From Candidatus Falkowbacteria bacterium RIFOXYC2_FULL_36_12 (GTDB taxonomy: Bacteria; Patescibacteriota; Patescibacteriia; UBA11705), in NCBI GenBank assembly GCA_001778235.1, contig MFGJ01000001.1:69302-133301 (forward strand): a stretch of 64,000 nucleotides of DNA. The letters are read 5' to 3'. Positions 35,985 through 41,379 of the stretch are shown piece by piece. A program made the translations under genes and the position numbers. A model generated the notes under the pieces. The model searched no databases. It was not told where the DNA came from and saw nothing but the letters and a program-made list of their open reading frames with translations. The stretch's first letter is position 1, and every line of letters begins with the position of its first letter.

Positions 35985-36022
35985 TCCGCAACTTCGCATT
36001 AGGCGCAGCCATTATACGCAAT
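35985..36022 (+). repeat. GC-rich direct repeat, downstream copy
   Basis: See the upstream copy; ggcggacg/cgtccgc complementarity adjoins both. Confidence 0.55.
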
Positions 36023-36175
36023 TCAAAAAATATTTTTCTTTTAATTTACGGATCTTTTGATAGGCTTTAATAAGGAATAAATTTGATTTTTTTTTTGATT
36101 AGAGGGGAAATAAAGTGTTTTCTCCGCTATCGCACCGAAAACTATTTATAATAACAGATACTTAACTAAGTTTAT

Positions 36176-37096
36176 ATGAACAATTTACTAGAAATACAAT
36201 CTTTAAACAAAACGCAGCTTACCGCCTTAATCAACAGATCAATAGATTTTAGTAAAAACAAAAAACAGCAATTATTAAAGAATAAACGCTTAGCTCTATT
36301 GTTTTCAGAGGTCTCTTTGAGAACCAAAATGTCGTTTAAAATTGGAATGCAATTATTAGGCGGTATTGCCACAACTGTCTCAATTCCGCACTTAACAAAA
36401 GAATTTGACGGAACAAATAGAGAGGATTTCTTAGATATTTTAAAATCACTGGAAGGTTGGGTAGATGCTTTTGTAATAAGAGATTACACAGGAAAATTAT
36501 TAGAAATGTCATTAAAACATACTAATTTACCTATAATCGATGGCTTTTGCGGTCTTAATCACCCCACACAAACTATTGCAGATCTGGCTATTATTCAAAA
36601 AGAATTTAAAAAAATCAAAAATCTTAAAATATGCTGTGTCTGTCCTCCATTTGGTAGCGGTGTTATGGAATCCTTTGCATACGGTGGGATTATAATGGGG
36701 GCGGATATATATTTCTTGACTCCAGAAAGCAAATATAGTTCTAAAAACAAAAGTTTCAATAAAAAGATTAAAGCATTGGGGAAAAAATGGGGCGGAAAGT
36801 TGACCATAACAACTGATATAAAAGTAGCATTATCAGATGCAAAAATCTTATATGTTGACGAGTGGTGGAAAAATACTAAAAACTTTTTGGATATTAAACT
36901 TGGTAAACTCAAAGTTGACAATGCTTTTTTGCAAAATGCTCTCCCAAATATTAAAATAATGCATTATTTACCAGCTCACCATGATAGAGAAATAACCAAA
37001 GAAATTTTACATTCAAAAAAATCAATAGCTTTTGAGCAAGCCGAGTTCAGATTATATTCTGCAATGGCTAGCTTGGAATATATTTTTAATAGGTAA
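36176..37096 (+). CDS. Divergent transcarbamylase of the ATCase/OTCase fold; substrate unknown
   Basis: SLRTKMSF in place of the STRTR carbamoyl-phosphate motif at the expected position; HPTQ motif; HYLPAHHDREIT in place of HCLPAxRGxE. Confidence 0.6.
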   Translation: MNNLLEIQSLNKTQLTALINRSIDFSKNKKQQLLKNKRLALLFSEVSLRTKMSFKIGMQLLGGIATTVSIPHLTKEFDGTNREDFLDILKSLEGWVDAFVIRDYTGKLLEMSLKHTNLPIIDGFCGLNHPTQTIADLAIIQKEFKKIKNLKICCVCPPFGSGVMESFAYGGIIMGADIYFLTPESKYSSKNKSFNKKIKALGKKWGGKLTITTDIKVALSDAKILYVDEWWKNTKNFLDIKLGKLKVDNAFLQNALPNIKIMHYLPAHHDREITKEILHSKKSIAFEQAEFRLYSAMASLEYIFNR

Positions 37097-37101
37097 TTTT
37101 T

Positions 37102-39042
37102 ATGTCAATTATATCCAAACCATCTTCAGTACAAATTAATGATGAAATTAGATATCAAAAGAAATTAATAAATAAATTTAGATCCTTATCTAATAAATAC
37201 TCAATAAAAATTTTAGATGAAAAATTTATTGTTTATCCGAAAGTATTTGAACCCAATTTGGATTCTGAGATACTTATAAAATCCTTAAAACATTTTAAAT
37301 TTACAAATTTTTTAGAAATCGGTGGTGGGACAGGAATTGTAAGTATTTTTGCGAGTAAATATGCAAAATCTGGGTTAGTTGTTGATATAAATAAAAATGC
37401 GATAAAAAATATTCAGGATAATATAAATTTACATAATTTAAATAAAATACTAACAGTTAATCGCGGTTCTCTTTTTGACAATGTTAGTCAAAAATATGAT
37501 CTAATTATCGCCAATCTTCCATTCATGAAAATAAAATCAGAAGATGTTGTCGCATCTGCTTTTTTTGATGAAAATCTTTCCACATGGAGTACTTTCTTAT
37601 CTCAGGCTTCAGAATATCTAACAGAAAATGGTTCCATATTGACCGTTTTACCAAATTTTTGCGCATTTGATGATATTCTTGAAATGGCTAAAAAAAATCA
37701 TTTTGAATATAAAATCATTGATTCATTAAGGGAAGATTGGAGGGAATTTACGACATTTAAATTATTTAAAAAATCAAATAAAATTTTAGTTGAACAAAGC
37801 AAGAAGATTGCAATATTCCTAAGAATAAATGCACGTAAAAAAAATAAGTATACATATGATACCATTAAAAAACCCTTTTACTTTTATGTTGACGGTTATA
37901 ATGGGAAATTACCCGTGTTTATTTTTTCATCTTTTCCATGCGCTAAATATTGCCAAGGATATTGTACACCTTGTTTATATTCAAACATAACTTGCAGCAG
38001 AGCAAAAAAAGATGAAATATATAATTCATTGATAGTACAAACACAATATATAATAGATAATTTTGACAACCTCATTACTAACAAACAGACAGACGCTGAA
38101 CACAAAAATCTCCATAAAATATATCCCGAAAATAAATTAGTCACCGCAGAGCTATGTGGCGAAGGTTCTTTTTTGGCAAACCCCGAAATACCATCTGAAT
38201 TCAGAAAAAAAATTATTGATATGTTTGTTGAATACTCTCAAAAAGAAAAGCTCAACATGCAACTATTCTTTGAATCAAAAATTTCAGATTTTCTTGAGGT
38301 TTATCAAGAATTTGAAGACCAAAAAGATTTAATTAAAAAATACAATCTTACACTTCTTTTTGGTTTTGAGGCAGTGAATGATTTCACAAGGCAGGTTCTT
38401 TATAACAAGGGCTTACAATTAAGGGACTTTGAAAAAGGAATTAAAAAAGCTCAAGAATTAGGCTTTCGCACAGGCGTTTTTGTCTTTTGCGGTGTACATT
38501 CAATGACGCAAAAAGAAATCATTGAAGACACGAAACAAACCATTGAATATTGCCGAAAGAATAATATTGCCTTTTATTTAATGTTACCAAACTTACAGCC
38601 ATTCACCCTTAATCACTTATTATTTATCAACAATAGATACAATCTGTTAGACCCAAGAACAGTTTTGGAAATAATCAAAATACTTATTGCTGACTCCGAT
38701 GGTACTGACAGTTCTTATTATTTGAACGGACATAACTGGAGCATCGGCGGCTTGACAACACACCCCCAACCAGAAATGTTTCTATTTCAAAACAAAAAAA
38801 ATATTGCTTGTGAGAAATGTTCAAATAGAATCAAAAGGATGATTTATGATCTTGCCAAAAGCTATGATACAGAAAAATTCATGGCAGAAGCAAAAAAACT
38901 GGATACTTGTAAATGCAAAAAAGACTATATTGCATTTACTGAATATGAAGAGCGAAATAAAGAAACCCTGCGGAAGCGAGTAGAAGATAATTTAACTTTT
39001 GCAATGGTAGAAAAAGAAAATTACATTAATACTTTACTATGA
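37102..39042 (+). CDS. Fusion protein: N-terminal class-I SAM methyltransferase-like domain (NLPF motif, HemK/Trm5-like) plus C-terminal radical-SAM domain with extra Cys pairs
   Basis: Motif I LEIGGGTGIV; motif IV DLIIANLPF; radical-SAM CX3CX2C within FPCAKYCQGYCTPC; GGE-like LCGEGSFLANPE; C-terminal CEKC...CKCKKD. Confidence 0.6.
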   Translation: MSIISKPSSVQINDEIRYQKKLINKFRSLSNKYSIKILDEKFIVYPKVFEPNLDSEILIKSLKHFKFTNFLEIGGGTGIVSIFASKYAKSGLVVDINKNAIKNIQDNINLHNLNKILTVNRGSLFDNVSQKYDLIIANLPFMKIKSEDVVASAFFDENLSTWSTFLSQASEYLTENGSILTVLPNFCAFDDILEMAKKNHFEYKIIDSLREDWREFTTFKLFKKSNKILVEQSKKIAIFLRINARKKNKYTYDTIKKPFYFYVDGYNGKLPVFIFSSFPCAKYCQGYCTPCLYSNITCSRAKKDEIYNSLIVQTQYIIDNFDNLITNKQTDAEHKNLHKIYPENKLVTAELCGEGSFLANPEIPSEFRKKIIDMFVEYSQKEKLNMQLFFESKISDFLEVYQEFEDQKDLIKKYNLTLLFGFEAVNDFTRQVLYNKGLQLRDFEKGIKKAQELGFRTGVFVFCGVHSMTQKEIIEDTKQTIEYCRKNNIAFYLMLPNLQPFTLNHLLFINNRYNLLDPRTVLEIIKILIADSDGTDSSYYLNGHNWSIGGLTTHPQPEMFLFQNKKNIACEKCSNRIKRMIYDLAKSYDTEKFMAEAKKLDTCKCKKDYIAFTEYEERNKETLRKRVEDNLTFAMVEKENYINTLL

Positions 39043-39365
39043 TAAAAAACAATATTTGGGGATATCAATTAATCTTAGATTTTCGAAATTGTAATAAAAC
39101 TATTTTTAAAGACGAAGAAAAAATGAAAATGAAACCCTATGGACAACCATTGATTAAAGAGTTTGGCAAAGACAAACTCAAAGGATATTCAGTTTTACAA
39201 TTTATTGAAACATCATCAATTACGATTCATTTTGACAATTTTGGAAATAGAGTTTTTATTGATATTTTTAGCTGTAAAAAATTCAGTAAGCAAAGTGCTG
39301 AAAATTTTTGTAAAAAATTCTTTAACACTAACGATGTAAAGTCATATTTACTGGAAAGATATTAG
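39039..39365 (+). CDS. Pyruvoyl-dependent decarboxylase-like small protein (SpeH/AdoMetDC class 1b-like)
   Basis: IETSSITIHFDNFGNRVFIDIFSC resembles the AdoMetDC self-cleavage/pyruvoyl region (ESHISIHTWPE...VDVFTCG). Overlaps the upstream gene by 4 nt. Confidence 0.45.
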   Translation: MIKNNIWGYQLILDFRNCNKTIFKDEEKMKMKPYGQPLIKEFGKDKLKGYSVLQFIETSSITIHFDNFGNRVFIDIFSCKKFSKQSAENFCKKFFNTNDVKSYLLERY

Positions 39366-39519
39366 TCTTTTTGCTATAACTATAAAGGCAGTAATCGTCT
39401 ACAATAGAAAAATGGTCGATCCCATCGCTTCAACATTAGACCCTGAAGAGACCGGCAAACAAATTTATTAATATTGAATAAAAAACCTATCAAAATACAG
39501 TTAATTGAAAAATATTTTT

Positions 39520-39680
39520 GAACTCACTCCGCTACGCTTCGTGCCACGCTGCGCTTTCCTCCCTTCGGTCGTCAGGGCGTATAATAAGGATTATGAGGAA
39601 AATGGCTCGGCTCGCCATTTTCCCAAATTTGATCCACTTCGTTCCGCAAACTTCTCATAATCCTAACGTTGTGCAAAACA
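39520..39680 (+). repeat. GC-rich structured palindromic element
   Basis: Inverted repeat aaggattatgag/ctcataatcct enclosing the perfect hairpin aaaatggc-tcggctc-gccatttt. Confidence 0.5.
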
Positions 39681-39732: not shown

Positions 39733-40044
39733 ATGGAAAGATTAACCAATGAAAAAAATGATGCCATACGTGCTGAGGCGCGACAAAAAGCATTAGAGGA
39801 AGCACGAGAACACGGTTTACAAGTTGGGACAACCGTTGGCTTTTATGACCTTAGAGATAGGATGAGCTATGAATTATTAGAAATTATAGGAGATACTGCA
39901 ATCATTGGATATGAAAATGAACGAGATGGTAAAGTCCGCATAGAAGCTCCCTTACAAGACCTAGTAGATGTAAACCGTGTTCTCAATATTGCTTCCGAAA
40001 TAATGGCCACTAGAAGTAGTATTAGGCCAGAGCAGTGGAATTAA
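39733..40044 (+). CDS. Hypothetical protein (103 aa)
   Basis: ORF with a plausible coiled-coil N-terminus. Confidence 0.35.
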   Translation: MERLTNEKNDAIRAEARQKALEEAREHGLQVGTTVGFYDLRDRMSYELLEIIGDTAIIGYENERDGKVRIEAPLQDLVDVNRVLNIASEIMATRSSIRPEQWN

Positions 40045-40363: not shown

Positions 40364-40534
40364 ATGACAGGAACCAAAGTAAGAGATATTCTTAAACTTA
40401 TTGCCAAAAAAAATGCTGCAGATGATTATAAGAGACAACTTTCCGATAGAAAAACTGAAATCGTTAAATTGGGACAATTACCAGCGCAACTGGCTAGACT
40501 AAAATCTTTAAGAGATCAAAAATCGAGTGATTAG
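40364..40534 (+). CDS. Small hypothetical protein (56 aa; MTGTKVRDILKLIAKKNAADDYKRQL...)
   Basis: Short ORF preceded by AGGGGTAAAG; not in the ORF track (<60 aa). Confidence 0.25.
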   Translation: MTGTKVRDILKLIAKKNAADDYKRQLSDRKTEIVKLGQLPAQLARLKSLRDQKSSD

Positions 40535-41379
40535 CTTTCACCCGATTTTTTTAATCTATTGATAACTTTTTGATAGTGCATTAGAAGTATTGGAACGCTT
40601 TCTTTCGGAATATCATCTTGCCACTTTACAATATACTCAACATATTTTTCCAATTGCAAAATAAATTCATTACGAATCATGCTAGCGTATCGACGCAACC
40701 GCTTTTTATCTCCCTCGGTACTGGTTTTTCCTCGTTCTTTTTTCATTAATTCTTCAATCTGAATGGTTGTCTGTGGTGGTAATCCTAAAATAACTTTTGG
40801 CATACGAAATTTACCACAAATATCCGGGTCAGCTTCCAATTGGAAGTATTTAACTCTTTGCAAATAACCTTTTAATATTTCATCGGTAATTTTTTCCTCT
40901 TTGGCCATAATTGTCATCACTTCATCGGTTGAAGCAACATCTACGGCTAAAAATTCGTAACCATGCTTGGCATTATCATCTTCAAGTGCAAGAACAAAAT
41001 CTACTCCATTGGTAAAATCATCATGGAGAGAAGCCGGAGTAATGCAAAACTCACCAGGGAAATCACCATAATTGGCTAATAATTCCATTGAAATGTATTC
41101 AGCTATCTCACTGGTTTCGTGGTAATTCTCTTTTACCCCTGAACCGCGTCGACGAACTGAATCATAAAAAACATCTCCTACTTGATGTCTCTGCGACATT
41201 TTTCTTACTCTTTCAATATCTTTAGCAACTTTTTCTGGTTGGTAAACCCTTTGACCATCTTCATCAATTAGACCCTGGAGGTCTTTAATTCGTGGTCTAG
41301 CTGCATTCCATTCAGAGATTAACTTTTCTGTAAATGTTTCTGGCTGAAACTCCTGAAATCTTTTTTCTGCGAATGCCAT
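40531..41379 (-). CDS. Hypothetical protein (282 aa)
   Basis: ORF only. Confidence 0.4.
   Translation of the reverse strand: MAFAEKRFQEFQPETFTEKLISEWNAARPRIKDLQGLIDEDGQRVYQPEKVAKDIERVRKMSQRHQVGDVFYDSVRRRGSGVKENYHETSEIAEYISMELLANYGDFPGEFCITPASLHDDFTNGVDFVLALEDDNAKHGYEFLAVDVASTDEVMTIMAKEEKITDEILKGYLQRVKYFQLEADPDICGKFRMPKVILGLPPQTTIQIEELMKKERGKTSTEGDKKRLRRYASMIRNEFILQLEKYVEYIVKWQDDIPKESVPILLMHYQKVINRLKKSGES

What the first reader, a model, noticed from the sequence alone, without database searches (positions are those of the whole stretch)
37102..39042. Unusual fusion of a class-I SAM methyltransferase-like domain (NLPF motif) to a radical-SAM domain with extra C-terminal Cys pairs
The N-terminal ~230 aa carry motif I LEIGGGTGIV and motif IV DLIIANLPF. 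That is the HemK/RsmC-type N/D-PP-F/Y motif, or the Trm5/TYW2-type NLP motif. The C-terminal ~400 aa carry a CX3CX2C triad (CQGYCTPC, with an extra upstream Cys), a GGE-like LCGEGSFLANPE, and a terminal CEKC...CKCKKD cluster. Class B, C and D radical-SAM methylases use cobalamin, HemN-like or other partners, not a Rossmann SAM-methyltransferase domain. A covalent Rossmann-methyltransferase plus radical-SAM enzyme is therefore uncommon. It suggests two sequential SAM-dependent steps on one substrate, for example alkyl or aminocarboxypropyl transfer followed by a radical rearrangement.
Basis: seen in the sequence. Interest (0 to 1): 0.65.

Follow-up and report, generated by a model that had tools for sequence, protein, structure and literature searches.

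The report
Methyltransferase fused to RaSEA-like radical-SAM enzyme
One gene in an uncultured Candidatus Falkowbacteria genome is a real, recent fusion of two neighbouring genes, an N-methyltransferase and a radical-SAM enzyme related to the archaeosine enzyme RaSEA, inside a small, undescribed amine-metabolism gene cassette whose product is unknown.

Summary
The 646-aa ORF (37102-39042, +) is real and uninterrupted, and it is seen identically in two MAG records and an independent read set. Residues 1-223 are an intact MTS/HemK-like class-I methyltransferase (GxGxG, NLPF). Residues 224-646 are a radical-SAM enzyme whose nearest named family is RaSEA (TIGR01210, E=1.5e-14, below cutoff), followed by MnmL/YtqA and Elp3.

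The "extra" C-terminal CxxC...CxC quartet is a trait shared with RaSEA.

The fusion is specific to this lineage. The closest relative (87% identity) has no methyltransferase at all, and another relative has it as a separate gene in the same position. The conserved cassette is a divergent carbamoyltransferase-like gene, then an optional methyltransferase, then the rSAM gene, then an AdoMet-decarboxylase-like gene, often with a Roadblock-fold protein alongside.

Rossmann-methyltransferase/rSAM fusions are already documented in the sister family (YtqA-MnmC2, YtqA-MnmM), where the rSAM removes an N-alkyl group and the methyltransferase methylates the freed amine. That order, radical C-N cleavage followed by N-methylation, is my best mechanistic reading. 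The substrate is unknown. Rating: new variant of a known kind, moderate interest.

The parts
36176..37096 (+). Divergent aspartate/ornithine carbamoyltransferase-fold gene (306 aa), directly upstream of the fusion. The carbamoyl-phosphate-side motifs are largely kept (S-x-R-T, R, HPxQ). The acceptor-side motifs are remodelled: STRTR to SLRTK, DGNNV to GSGVM, DxxxSMG to DEWWKNT, HCLP to HYLP.
   Evidence: Pfam OTCace_N and OTCace at about 1e-28. TIGR00658 scores 177.7 bits, below its cutoff of 280.85. Alignment to B. anthracis OTC 4nf2. The divergent motifs are conserved in 4 orthologues. Directly upstream of the rSAM gene in 7 of 8 contexts. dN/dS 0.10.
37102..39042 (+). The fused ORF (646 aa): methyltransferase module plus RaSEA-like radical-SAM module.
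37102..37770 (+). Methyltransferase module (aa 1-223). MTS/HemK2-like class-I fold with motif I GGGTG (aa 74-78), motif II D95 and motif IV N138-L-P140-F.
   Evidence: Pfam MTS 3.3e-15, NF011529 8.9e-31, PDB 1dus (MJ0882) 1.5e-8. G74, G76, G78, D95, N138 and P140 are invariant in homologues P0018-P0022. This stretch is an insertion relative to L001 (window 37097-37796).
37756..37800 (+). Fusion junction. The methyltransferase C-terminus (FKLFKK) runs directly into the rSAM N-terminus (SNKILVEQSKK). The stop codon, 17-nt spacer and ATG seen in L007 are absent, and there is no in-frame ATG, GTG or TTG nearby.
37771..39042 (+). Radical-SAM module (aa 224-646), sister family of RaSEA.
37939..37974 (+). 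Predicted [4Fe-4S]/SAM cluster motif C280-x7-C288-x2-C291. C284 lies inside it but is not conserved.
   Evidence: Invariant in 37 family members and in RaSEAs.
38152..38187 (+). GGE-like SAM-binding motif LCGEGSFLANPE. G355 and S356 are invariant in the close clade, and E362 is also conserved.
38809..38916 (+). C-terminal Cys quartet, C570-x2-C573 and C603-x-C605. This is a probable auxiliary metal site and is shared with RaSEA.
   Evidence: Invariant in the close clade and present in RaSEAs P0124, P0108 and P0100.
39039..39365 (+). AdoMet_dc-fold (pyruvoyl-type decarboxylase-like) gene of 108 aa, overlapping the fusion's stop by 4 nt. The equivalents of Ser63, His68 and Cys83 of T. maritima AdoMetDC are kept, with Thr-Ser replacing Glu-Ser at the cleavage site. 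This copy has an 11-aa in-frame deletion in helix 1 compared with its orthologues.
   Evidence: Pfam AdoMet_dc 2.5e-11. Profile alignment to 1tlu. The deletion. Directly downstream of the rSAM gene in 4 of 6 assessable contexts.
39382..39465 (+). 28-codon remnant of the Roadblock/LC7-fold 121-aa gene that follows the cassette in relatives.
   Evidence: tblastn 82% identity over 28 aa, corresponding to residues 21-48 of the 121-aa protein, ending in a stop. The intact family has pLDDT 95.5 and TM 0.8 to Roadblock/MglB structures.

Best explanation
The ORF is a genuine, evolutionarily recent in-frame fusion of two adjacent operon genes in a Candidatus Falkowbacteria (CPR) genome. One is an MTS/HemK-like class-I N-methyltransferase (aa 1-223). 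The other is a radical-SAM enzyme from an undescribed sister family of RaSEA (aa 224-646). It belongs to a compact cassette conserved in CPR-type genomes: carbamoyltransferase-like gene, optional methyltransferase, rSAM, pyruvoyl-decarboxylase-like gene, often with a Roadblock-fold protein.

Proposed mechanism. The anatomy is shown; the chemistry is inferred by analogy. The rSAM module binds a [4Fe-4S] cluster through C280, C288 and C291 and cleaves SAM to a 5'-deoxyadenosyl radical. Like its characterised relatives, it then breaks a C-N bond next to a substituted nitrogen, stripping an amino-acid- or amine-derived carbon skeleton and leaving a free NH2. RaSEA does this for preQ0-Lys to archaeosine, and MnmL/YhcC does it for cmnm5s2U to nm5s2U. 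The fused methyltransferase, with its NPPY-type NLPF motif typical of N-methylation, then methylates the unmasked nitrogen. This is the same two-step logic as MnmL+MnmM and MnmC.

The substrate is unknown. The neighbours point to an amino-acid- or polyamine-derived amine or ureido moiety. My confidence is about 0.9 for the fusion and family assignment, and about 0.35 for the mechanism and the order of steps. The single figure given (0.4) is for the whole statement, mechanism included.
For: Shown:
- Single ORF, found in two MAG records and an independent read-set assembly.
- The methyltransferase region is a roughly 700-bp insertion relative to the 87%-identical locus L001, which reads OTC-like, rSAM, AdoMet_dc-like.
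- L007 has the methyltransferase as a separate gene in the same slot, and the junction in the window lacks the stop, spacer and start.
- All catalytic motifs of both halves are conserved.
- Purifying selection: dN/dS 0.07 for the rSAM half and 0.18 for the methyltransferase.
- There is no internal start, so the rSAM module can only be made as the fusion.
- RaSEA kinship: TIGR01210 at 1.5e-14, reciprocal recovery of true RaSEAs, and shared Cx7-8Cx2C, GS[FL], E168, GxE, R207, K213 and C-terminal CxxC...CxC.
- The fold is an rSAM barrel with Elp3 8PTY as the best Foldseek hit. The YhcC paper used the same structure to dock the cofactors into its YhcC model.

Precedent from the literature:
- RaSEA converts preQ0-Lys to G+ (PMC11298593).
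- MnmL/YhcC removes the carboxymethyl group from cmnm5s2U, and MnmM or MnmC2 then methylates the amine.
- YtqA-MnmC2 and YtqA-MnmM fusions exist.

Amine theme in partners across the family: carbamoyltransferase-like in 7 of 8 contexts, AdoMet_dc-like in 4 of 6, PvlArgDC plus a class-I methyltransferase in the distant L020, aminotransferases, RimK ligases, and GNAT fusions.
Against: - No biochemical data exist for any member of this family.
- The RaSEA match is far below the curated cutoff (54 against 212 bits), and radical-SAM relatives often differ in chemistry.
- The methyltransferase is absent from 6 of 8 cassettes, so methylation is not essential to the core pathway.
- A 42%-identical stand-alone homologue of the methyltransferase (P0020) sits in an unrelated context.
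- Simple RaSEA-like cleavage of an N-carbamoyl amine would merely release urea, so the role of the carbamoyltransferase-like partner is not explained.
- The cassette is eroding downstream in this genome: an 11-aa deletion in the decarboxylase-like gene and a Roadblock gene reduced to a remnant. This leaves open that the fusion is a by-product of decay.
- The order of the two steps is inferred only by analogy.
Confidence: 0.4

Rival explanations
1. The fusion is neutral or accidental. Loss of the stop codon and spacer between two adjacent genes, in a cassette that is decaying, produced the fusion. The two modules work independently, with no channeling, or one of them is inactive. On this view the methyltransferase is an optional tailoring or housekeeping enzyme.
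For: The methyltransferase is absent from 6 of 8 related cassettes, including the closest at 87% identity. A stand-alone homologue, P0020, sits in an unrelated neighbourhood. The linker has zero length. There is downstream erosion in the window. No other methyltransferase-fused member appears among the 150 best representatives.
Against: The methyltransferase occupies the same slot between the OTC-like and rSAM genes in L007. A class-I methyltransferase also accompanies a 29%-identical family member in L020. All motifs are intact and dN/dS is low. The rSAM module has no start codon of its own, so the fusion must be tolerated functionally.
Confidence: 0.25
2. The chemistry is different from N-dealkylation, along the lines of the first reader's idea or an Elp3-like reaction. 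Either the methyltransferase-fold module first transfers a group (methyl, aminopropyl or aminocarboxypropyl) and the rSAM module then performs a radical rearrangement, or the rSAM module forms a C-C or C-methyl bond as Elp3 does.
For: Elp3 is the best Foldseek match. GNAT-rSAM fusions exist in the same family and resemble Elp3's rSAM plus acetyltransferase pairing. An AdoMet-decarboxylase-like neighbour could in principle supply decarboxylated SAM. The domain order is methyltransferase first.
Against: By sequence the family is closest to RaSEA, not Elp3. The Trm5/TYW2 and spermidine-synthase models score below threshold (18.7 and 14.1 bits). The NLPF/NPPY-type motif is the signature of N-methyltransferases, which is established knowledge for the HemK and RsmC families. 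In the window copy, the residue aligned to Glu72 of T. maritima AdoMetDC is Asn.
Confidence: 0.2
3. The target is a macromolecule. The fusion would be a tRNA or rRNA (or protein) modification enzyme, like all its characterised relatives, and the neighbouring enzymes would only supply a small-molecule donor.
For: RaSEA, MnmL/YhcC and Elp3 all act on tRNA. MTS/HemK-family methyltransferases act on rRNA, tRNA or protein. RaSEA has no RNA-binding domain of its own and relies on a partner. The rSAM N-terminal helix is rich in Lys and Arg.
Against: Pfam finds no RNA-binding domain (PUA, THUMP, TRAM) in the fusion. The Pfam lists and scans of cassette-adjacent genes in the related loci show no TGT, ArcS or MnmE/G homologue, and none was found among the window ORFs scanned. 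The conserved partners are small-molecule amine enzymes. This rival concerns the substrate and is compatible with the proposed chemistry.
Confidence: 0.25
4. The ORF is an artefact: really two genes joined by a sequencing or assembly error.
For: The junction lies in an A-rich, low-complexity stretch. Some ENA assemblies of the same protein cluster are broken or chimeric near the middle of the methyltransferase (P0013, P0015) or stop exactly at the junction (P0014).
Against: The identical full-length protein is in two MAG records, a near-identical one comes from SRR3989339, and the junction is clean and in frame.
Confidence: 0.03

Closest known systems
[quoted passage not shown]
   Same: It is the nearest named family by sequence. 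It shares the long-spaced cluster motif (Cx8Cx2C against Cx7Cx2C here), GS[FL], E168, GxE, R207, K213 and the C-terminal CxxC...CxC quartet. It works together with the enzyme that makes its substrate (PMC11298593), and here the partner genes overlap or abut.
   Different: The score is 54 bits against a cutoff of 212. This family has extra loops and a longer C-terminal helical tail. It occurs in bacteria (CPR) rather than Euryarchaeota. No ArcS or ArcTGT is nearby. Its partners are a carbamoyltransferase-like enzyme and a pyruvoyl-decarboxylase-like enzyme. In this genome it is fused to a methyltransferase.
MnmL/YtqA/YhcC (TIGR01212) with MnmM or MnmC2, including YtqA-MnmC2 and YtqA-MnmM fusion proteins
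   Same: An Elp3-like-clade rSAM that removes an N-linked carbon skeleton, followed by a class-I methyltransferase that methylates the freed amine. The genes are adjacent or fused. This is the best functional precedent for an rSAM plus Rossmann-methyltransferase fusion.
   Different: TIGR01212 is not among the 25 best NCBIfam hits for the window protein, so any match has E above 0.007. The methyltransferase here is MTS/HemK-like, not the MnmM or MnmC2 family. The operon partners are unrelated to the mnm5s2U pathway.
Elp3 (Elongator catalytic subunit: rSAM plus GNAT/KAT)
   Same: It is the best Foldseek structural match to the rSAM module (8pty_C, E=4.6e-6). It too is an rSAM core covalently joined to a group-transfer domain, and the same family as the window protein has GNAT-fused members.
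   Different: Sequence identity is only 12-16%. The partner domain is a methyltransferase and sits at the N-terminus. No acetyl-CoA-binding domain is present.
HemK2/MTQ2, RsmC and MJ0882 (MTS, PF05175) N-methyltransferases
   Same: Class-I fold with GxGxG, an acidic motif II and a (N/D)PP(Y/F)-type motif IV. There are significant hits to MTS, NF011529, TIGR00537 and PDB 1dus.
   Different: It scores below every equivalog cutoff (TIGR00537 69 bits against 87; NF011529 107 against 162). Motif IV is NLPF or NLPI in this subfamily.

Membership tests
Radical SAM superfamily | Three-Cys motif that ligates the [4Fe-4S] cluster, conserved across homologues | tested here: met
   C280, C288 and C291 are invariant in 37 family members and in RaSEAs. 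The spacing is Cx7Cx2C rather than the canonical CX3CX2C.
Radical SAM superfamily | Partial or full TIM-barrel rSAM fold with a GGE-like SAM motif | tested here: met
RaSEA (TIGR01210) | Score at or above the curated equivalog cutoff (212.15 bits) | tested here: not met
   54 bits, E=1.5e-14.
RaSEA (TIGR01210) | Long-spaced Cys triad plus a C-terminal CxxC...CxC quartet | tested here: met
   Alignment with P0124 (376 bits to TIGR01210), P0108 and P0100.
RaSEA (TIGR01210) | Genomic and functional pairing with ArcS/ArcTGT and the preQ0 pathway | tested here: not met
   No TGT, PUA or ArcS-type gene appears in the Pfam lists or scans of cassette-adjacent genes in the related loci or among the window ORFs scanned. 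The rest of the genome could not be searched.
RaSEA (TIGR01210) | Catalyses C-N cleavage of preQ0-Lys-tRNA to archaeosine | not testable with these tools
   Requires biochemistry.
MnmL/YtqA (TIGR01212) with MnmM or MnmC2 | Match to TIGR01212, and a methyltransferase of the MnmM or MnmC2 family | tested here: not met
   TIGR01212 is not among the 25 best NCBIfam hits. The methyltransferase half hits MTS/HemK-type models, and neither MnmM nor MnmC2 appears among the hits listed for it.
MTS small methyltransferase domain (PF05175) | Score above the gathering threshold, with motifs I, II and IV present | tested here: met
   56.6 bits against 23. G74, G76, G78, D95, N138 and P140 are invariant.
HemK2/MTQ2 (TIGR00537) and PrmC (TIGR03534) | Equivalog cutoff reached and a canonical NPPY motif | tested here: not met
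   69 bits against 87, and 55 against 199. The motif is NLPF.
Trm5/TYW2 (PF02475) | Score above the gathering threshold (28 bits) | tested here: not met
   18.7 bits, E=0.0018. NF047730 Trm5b scores 18 bits against 600.
Class B, C or D radical-SAM methylases | Cobalamin-binding, HemN-like or other class-specific auxiliary domain | tested here: not met
   No such domain appears in the Pfam or NCBIfam scans. TsrM and HemN appear only as generic barrel matches.
Ornithine carbamoyltransferase (neighbour gene) | Equivalog score and the ornithine-binding motifs DxxxSMG and HCLP | tested here: not met
   177.7 bits against 280.85. The motifs read DEWWKNT and HYLP, and these variants are conserved in orthologues.
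Pyruvoyl AdoMet decarboxylase, PF02675 (neighbour gene) | Pfam threshold reached and the processing Ser, His and Cys present | tested here: met
   44.3 bits against 25. The Ser63, His68 and Cys83 equivalents are conserved. SAM as the substrate is not established: TIGR03330 scores 22.7 against 75.65. The window copy has an 11-aa deletion.

The most novel reading that the evidence does not exclude
The cassette of carbamoyltransferase-like enzyme, RaSEA-like rSAM and pyruvoyl decarboxylase, with an optional N-methyltransferase, encodes an undescribed pathway in CPR/DPANN-type organisms. In this pathway an amino acid or amine is attached through its nitrogen and its carbon skeleton is then removed by radical chemistry, as in archaeosine and mnm5U synthesis. 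The product would be a new small metabolite or nucleic-acid modification, and the Falkowbacteria fusion would capture the last two steps (unmasking, then N-methylation) in one polypeptide.
Probability: 0.25. Interest if true: 0.7.

Novelty: new variant of a known kind. Interest (0 to 1): 0.5.

Why it matters
RaSEA and MnmL define a small group of radical-SAM enzymes that use an amino acid as a disposable nitrogen carrier. This locus reveals a third, uncharacterised sister family: 68 cluster representatives at E≤1e-30 among 1.84 billion representative proteins (50%-identity clusters). The family sits in organisms with minimal metabolism, next to amine-handling enzymes rather than tRNA enzymes.

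The methyltransferase fusion, its split form in L007 and the methyltransferase-free forms together act as a natural Rosetta stone. They link the rSAM step to an N-methylation and give a concrete, testable enzyme set of three or four small genes. If the chemistry holds, it would extend radical N-dealkylation beyond tRNA. If it does not, the family is still an unassigned rSAM clade with a clear genomic handle.

Tried and rejected
1. Full-length structure model. The alignment mixing methyltransferase-only and rSAM-only homologues (A6) was misaligned, with the methyltransferase sequences smeared over the rSAM half, so I did not model the fusion. No inter-domain geometry is available.
2. The afdb50 fold library was unavailable.
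3. The broad family alignment A3 was too diverse for a locus scan. The tighter A2 scans found only 3 genome loci and 1 metagenome locus.
4. The conserved 121-aa neighbour was tested as a possible pathway enzyme or carrier. It has a Roadblock/LC7 fold and also occurs alone in L022 and L023. It is therefore uninformative about the chemistry.
5. The unexplained 125-140-aa N-terminal extensions of other family members (P0028, P0030, P0038, P0040) match neither the AdoMet_dc-like nor the Roadblock profile.
6. There are no relatives in the annotated phage or plasmid collections.
7. There is no Rfam element in the locus. Promoter and terminator matches are at chance level. The GC-rich stretch at 39510-39660 is not significantly structured (z=-1.84).
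8. The literature search found no description of a bacterial RaSEA-like family or of this cassette.
9. I rejected a Trm5/TYW2 or spermidine-synthase identity for the N-half because the scores are sub-threshold. I rejected ordinary OTC identity for the neighbour because its motifs are remodelled.
Full report
OBSERVATION. Window 37102-39042 (+) is one uninterrupted 646-aa ORF. The protein is identical to OGF33393.1 and OGF46074.1 from two Candidatus Falkowbacteria MAG records (Candidate Phyla Radiation). An independent assembly of SRR3989339 gives the same 646-aa architecture with one substitution. The shorter members of the same 90% cluster are contig-end or chimeric fragments. A missed stop or frameshift is therefore very unlikely.

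THE TWO HALVES. Residues about 39-222 match the MTS small methyltransferase domain (Pfam PF05175, 3.3e-15, 56.6 bits against a cutoff of 23). They also match archaeal HemK2/MTQ2-like models (NF011529 at 8.9e-31, TIGR00537 at 4e-19, both below the equivalog cutoffs) and the structure of MJ0882 (1dus, 1.5e-8). In the five available homologues G74, G76, G78, D95, N138 and P140 are invariant. Motif IV reads NLPF or NLPI in the four closest homologues and canonical NPPY in a HemK-like outlier. The Trm5/TYW2 and spermidine-synthase models are sub-threshold.

CORRECTIONS TO THE MOTIF READING. Alignments of 12, 37 and 11 sequences show that the invariant cysteines are C280, C288 and C291, a Cx7Cx2C spacing. 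Genuine RaSEAs (P0124, P0108 and P0100, at 245-376 bits to TIGR01210) have the analogous Cx8Cx2C. They also share the GS[FL] motif, E168, G198-x-E200, R207 and K213 (C-half numbering), and the C-terminal CxxC...CxC quartet. The "extra Cys pairs" are therefore a RaSEA-type family trait and a probable auxiliary metal site.

IS THE FUSION REAL, AND HOW OLD IS IT? All other homologues found are stand-alone proteins of about 423 aa that begin exactly at the junction.
- In the closest relative (87% protein identity, L001/L002) the gene order is carbamoyltransferase-like, rSAM, AdoMet_dc-like, with no methyltransferase. At the DNA level, window 37097-37796 is an insertion relative to that locus.
- In L007 the same slot holds a separate 221-aa methyltransferase gene (P0018, 52% identical, NLPF kept), followed after a stop and a 17-nt spacer by the rSAM gene.
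- In the window the stop, spacer and start are gone. The methyltransferase C-terminus (FKLFKK) runs straight into the rSAM N-terminus, and no in-frame ATG, GTG or TTG lies between 37701 and 37900. The rSAM module can therefore be made here only as the fusion.
- Both halves are under purifying selection. dN/dS is 0.066 for the rSAM half against L001 and 0.18 for the methyltransferase against L007, with dS near saturation in the latter.
- A profile search of 1.84 billion representatives found 703 relatives, 68 of them at E≤1e-30. None of the best 150 has an N-terminal extension of about 225 aa.

Taken together, the fusion is genuine, young and restricted to this lineage.

THE CASSETTE. I built local profiles and ran them over all fetched loci. 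With duplicates merged there are eight distinct contexts of the close clade.
- The carbamoyltransferase-like gene lies directly upstream in 7 of 8.
- The AdoMet_dc-like gene lies directly downstream in 4 of 6 assessable contexts.
- A 121-aa gene is adjacent in 5 of 8.
- The methyltransferase is present in 2 of 8: separate in L007 and fused in the window.

The carbamoyltransferase-like protein keeps much of the carbamoyl-phosphate side (S-x-R-T, Arg, HPxQ). Its acceptor side is remodelled (STRTR to SLRTK, DGNNV to GSGVM, DxxxSMG to DEWWKNT, HCLP to HYLP), and these variant motifs are conserved among orthologues. It is not an ordinary OTC.

The AdoMet_dc-like protein keeps the equivalents of Ser63 (pyruvoyl precursor), His68 and Cys83 of T. 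maritima AdoMetDC, with Thr-Ser replacing Glu-Ser at the cleavage site.

The 121-aa protein has a Roadblock/LC7 (MglB-like) fold (pLDDT 95.5, TM about 0.8). It also occurs alone elsewhere, so it says little about the chemistry.

More distant family members sit next to, or are fused with, other nitrogen-handling enzymes:
- aminotransferases and RimK-type ligases (L005, L017, L019);
- N-terminal GNAT domains (P0025, P0027, P0033);
- a second rSAM domain;
- on a mobile element, an FMN reductase, a class-I methyltransferase and a pyruvoyl arginine decarboxylase (L020).

The window ORFs I scanned outside the cassette are housekeeping genes or have no family match.

In this genome the downstream end of the cassette is eroding. 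The AdoMet_dc-like gene has an 11-aa in-frame deletion, and the Roadblock gene survives only as a 28-codon remnant at 39382-39465.

MECHANISM. The following are shown: the anatomy, the conserved motifs, the kinship to RaSEA and the operon partners. The chemistry is inferred.

The characterised relatives do the same kind of reaction. RaSEA converts preQ0-Lys-tRNA into archaeosine by removing the lysine skeleton from the amidine nitrogen, and it works in a complex with ArcS, the enzyme that makes its substrate (PMC11298593). MnmL/YhcC removes the carboxymethyl group from cmnm5s2U to give nm5s2U, after which a class-I methyltransferase (MnmM or MnmC2) methylates the freed amine (bioRxiv 10.64898/2026.05.18.725915 and 10.1101/2023.12.21.572861). 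The second of those papers documents YtqA-MnmC2 and YtqA-MnmM fusion proteins.

By analogy I propose that the rSAM module performs radical C-N scission next to a substituted nitrogen. The fused methyltransferase, whose NPPY-type motif is typical of N-methylation, would then methylate the nitrogen that is exposed. The substrate is unknown. The partners suggest an amino-acid- or polyamine-derived amine or ureido compound, but an RNA target cannot be excluded.

This model has three weaknesses. The methyltransferase is dispensable in most cassettes. The role of the carbamoyltransferase-like enzyme is unexplained, since simple cleavage of a ureido amine would only release urea. Finally, rSAM relatives often diverge in chemistry.

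COMPARISON AND NOVELTY. The protein fails the membership tests for RaSEA (score and genomic partners), MnmL/MnmM, HemK2, Trm5/TYW2 and the class B-D rSAM methylases. It passes those for the rSAM superfamily and the MTS domain.

What is new here is twofold: an undescribed sister family of RaSEA embedded in a conserved CPR cassette of amine enzymes, and a lineage-specific fusion that ties it to an N-methyltransferase. I found no literature on it in the held library. I rate it a new variant of a known kind, with an interest score of 0.5.

Noticed in passing
window 39382-39465: 28-codon remnant (KAVIVYNRKMVDPIASTLDPEETGKQIY*) of the Roadblock/LC7-fold 121-aa gene that follows the cassette in relatives. 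Both ends of the gene are missing.
   Followed up: yes
window 39039-39365: The AdoMet_dc-like gene has an 11-aa in-frame deletion (helix 1) relative to its orthologues in L001, L011 and L014. The catalytic Ser, His and Cys are retained. Whether it is still functional is unclear.
   Followed up: partly
window 39510-39660: GC-rich stretch with nested inverted repeats (GGATTATGAG...CTCATAATCC and GGAAAATGGC...GCCATTTTCC) directly after the gene remnant. It has no Rfam match and its fold z-score is only -1.84. It may be a scar of the event that truncated the neighbouring gene.
   Followed up: partly
window 39733-40044 (+) and 40531-41379 (-): Two ORFs (103 aa and 282 aa) with no significant Pfam family, lying between the cassette and the TsaE/TsaD-like genes on the minus strand.
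   Followed up: no
window 36001-38000: GC content drops to 0.288 over the carbamoyltransferase-like gene and the methyltransferase module, against about 0.29-0.39 (mostly 0.32-0.37) in the other 2-kb bins of the window. This is compatible with acquired DNA but was not tested.
   Followed up: no
L020 3839-11187 (also L021): A distant family member (29% identity) is fused to a second radical-SAM domain. It sits on an element with an integrase and Mob_Pre, next to an FMN reductase, a 935-aa unknown protein, a class-I methyltransferase and a pyruvoyl arginine decarboxylase. This looks like a mobile, larger version of the same theme.
   Followed up: partly
P0025, P0027, P0033 (representative library): Members of the same rSAM family carry an N-terminal GNAT acetyltransferase domain, the reverse domain order of Elp3. 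Others (P0028, P0030, P0038, P0040) have unidentified N-terminal extensions of 125-140 aa.
   Followed up: partly
L012 190-2705: Two tandem RaSEA-like paralogues, one lacking the C-terminal Cys quartet, are followed by ORFs resembling an adenylate-forming enzyme, in a high-GC uncultured bacterium.
   Followed up: no
L011 (whole 2262-nt contig): This contig is binned in a 'Methanosarcinales archaeon' MAG yet carries the CPR-type cassette (OTC-like, rSAM, AdoMet_dc-like) at 56% identity. It is either misbinned or horizontally transferred.
   Followed up: no
L017 3-1764: A RuBisCO large-chain homologue and a RimK-type ATP-grasp ligase lie immediately upstream of the Roadblock, OTC-like, rSAM cassette.
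   Followed up: no
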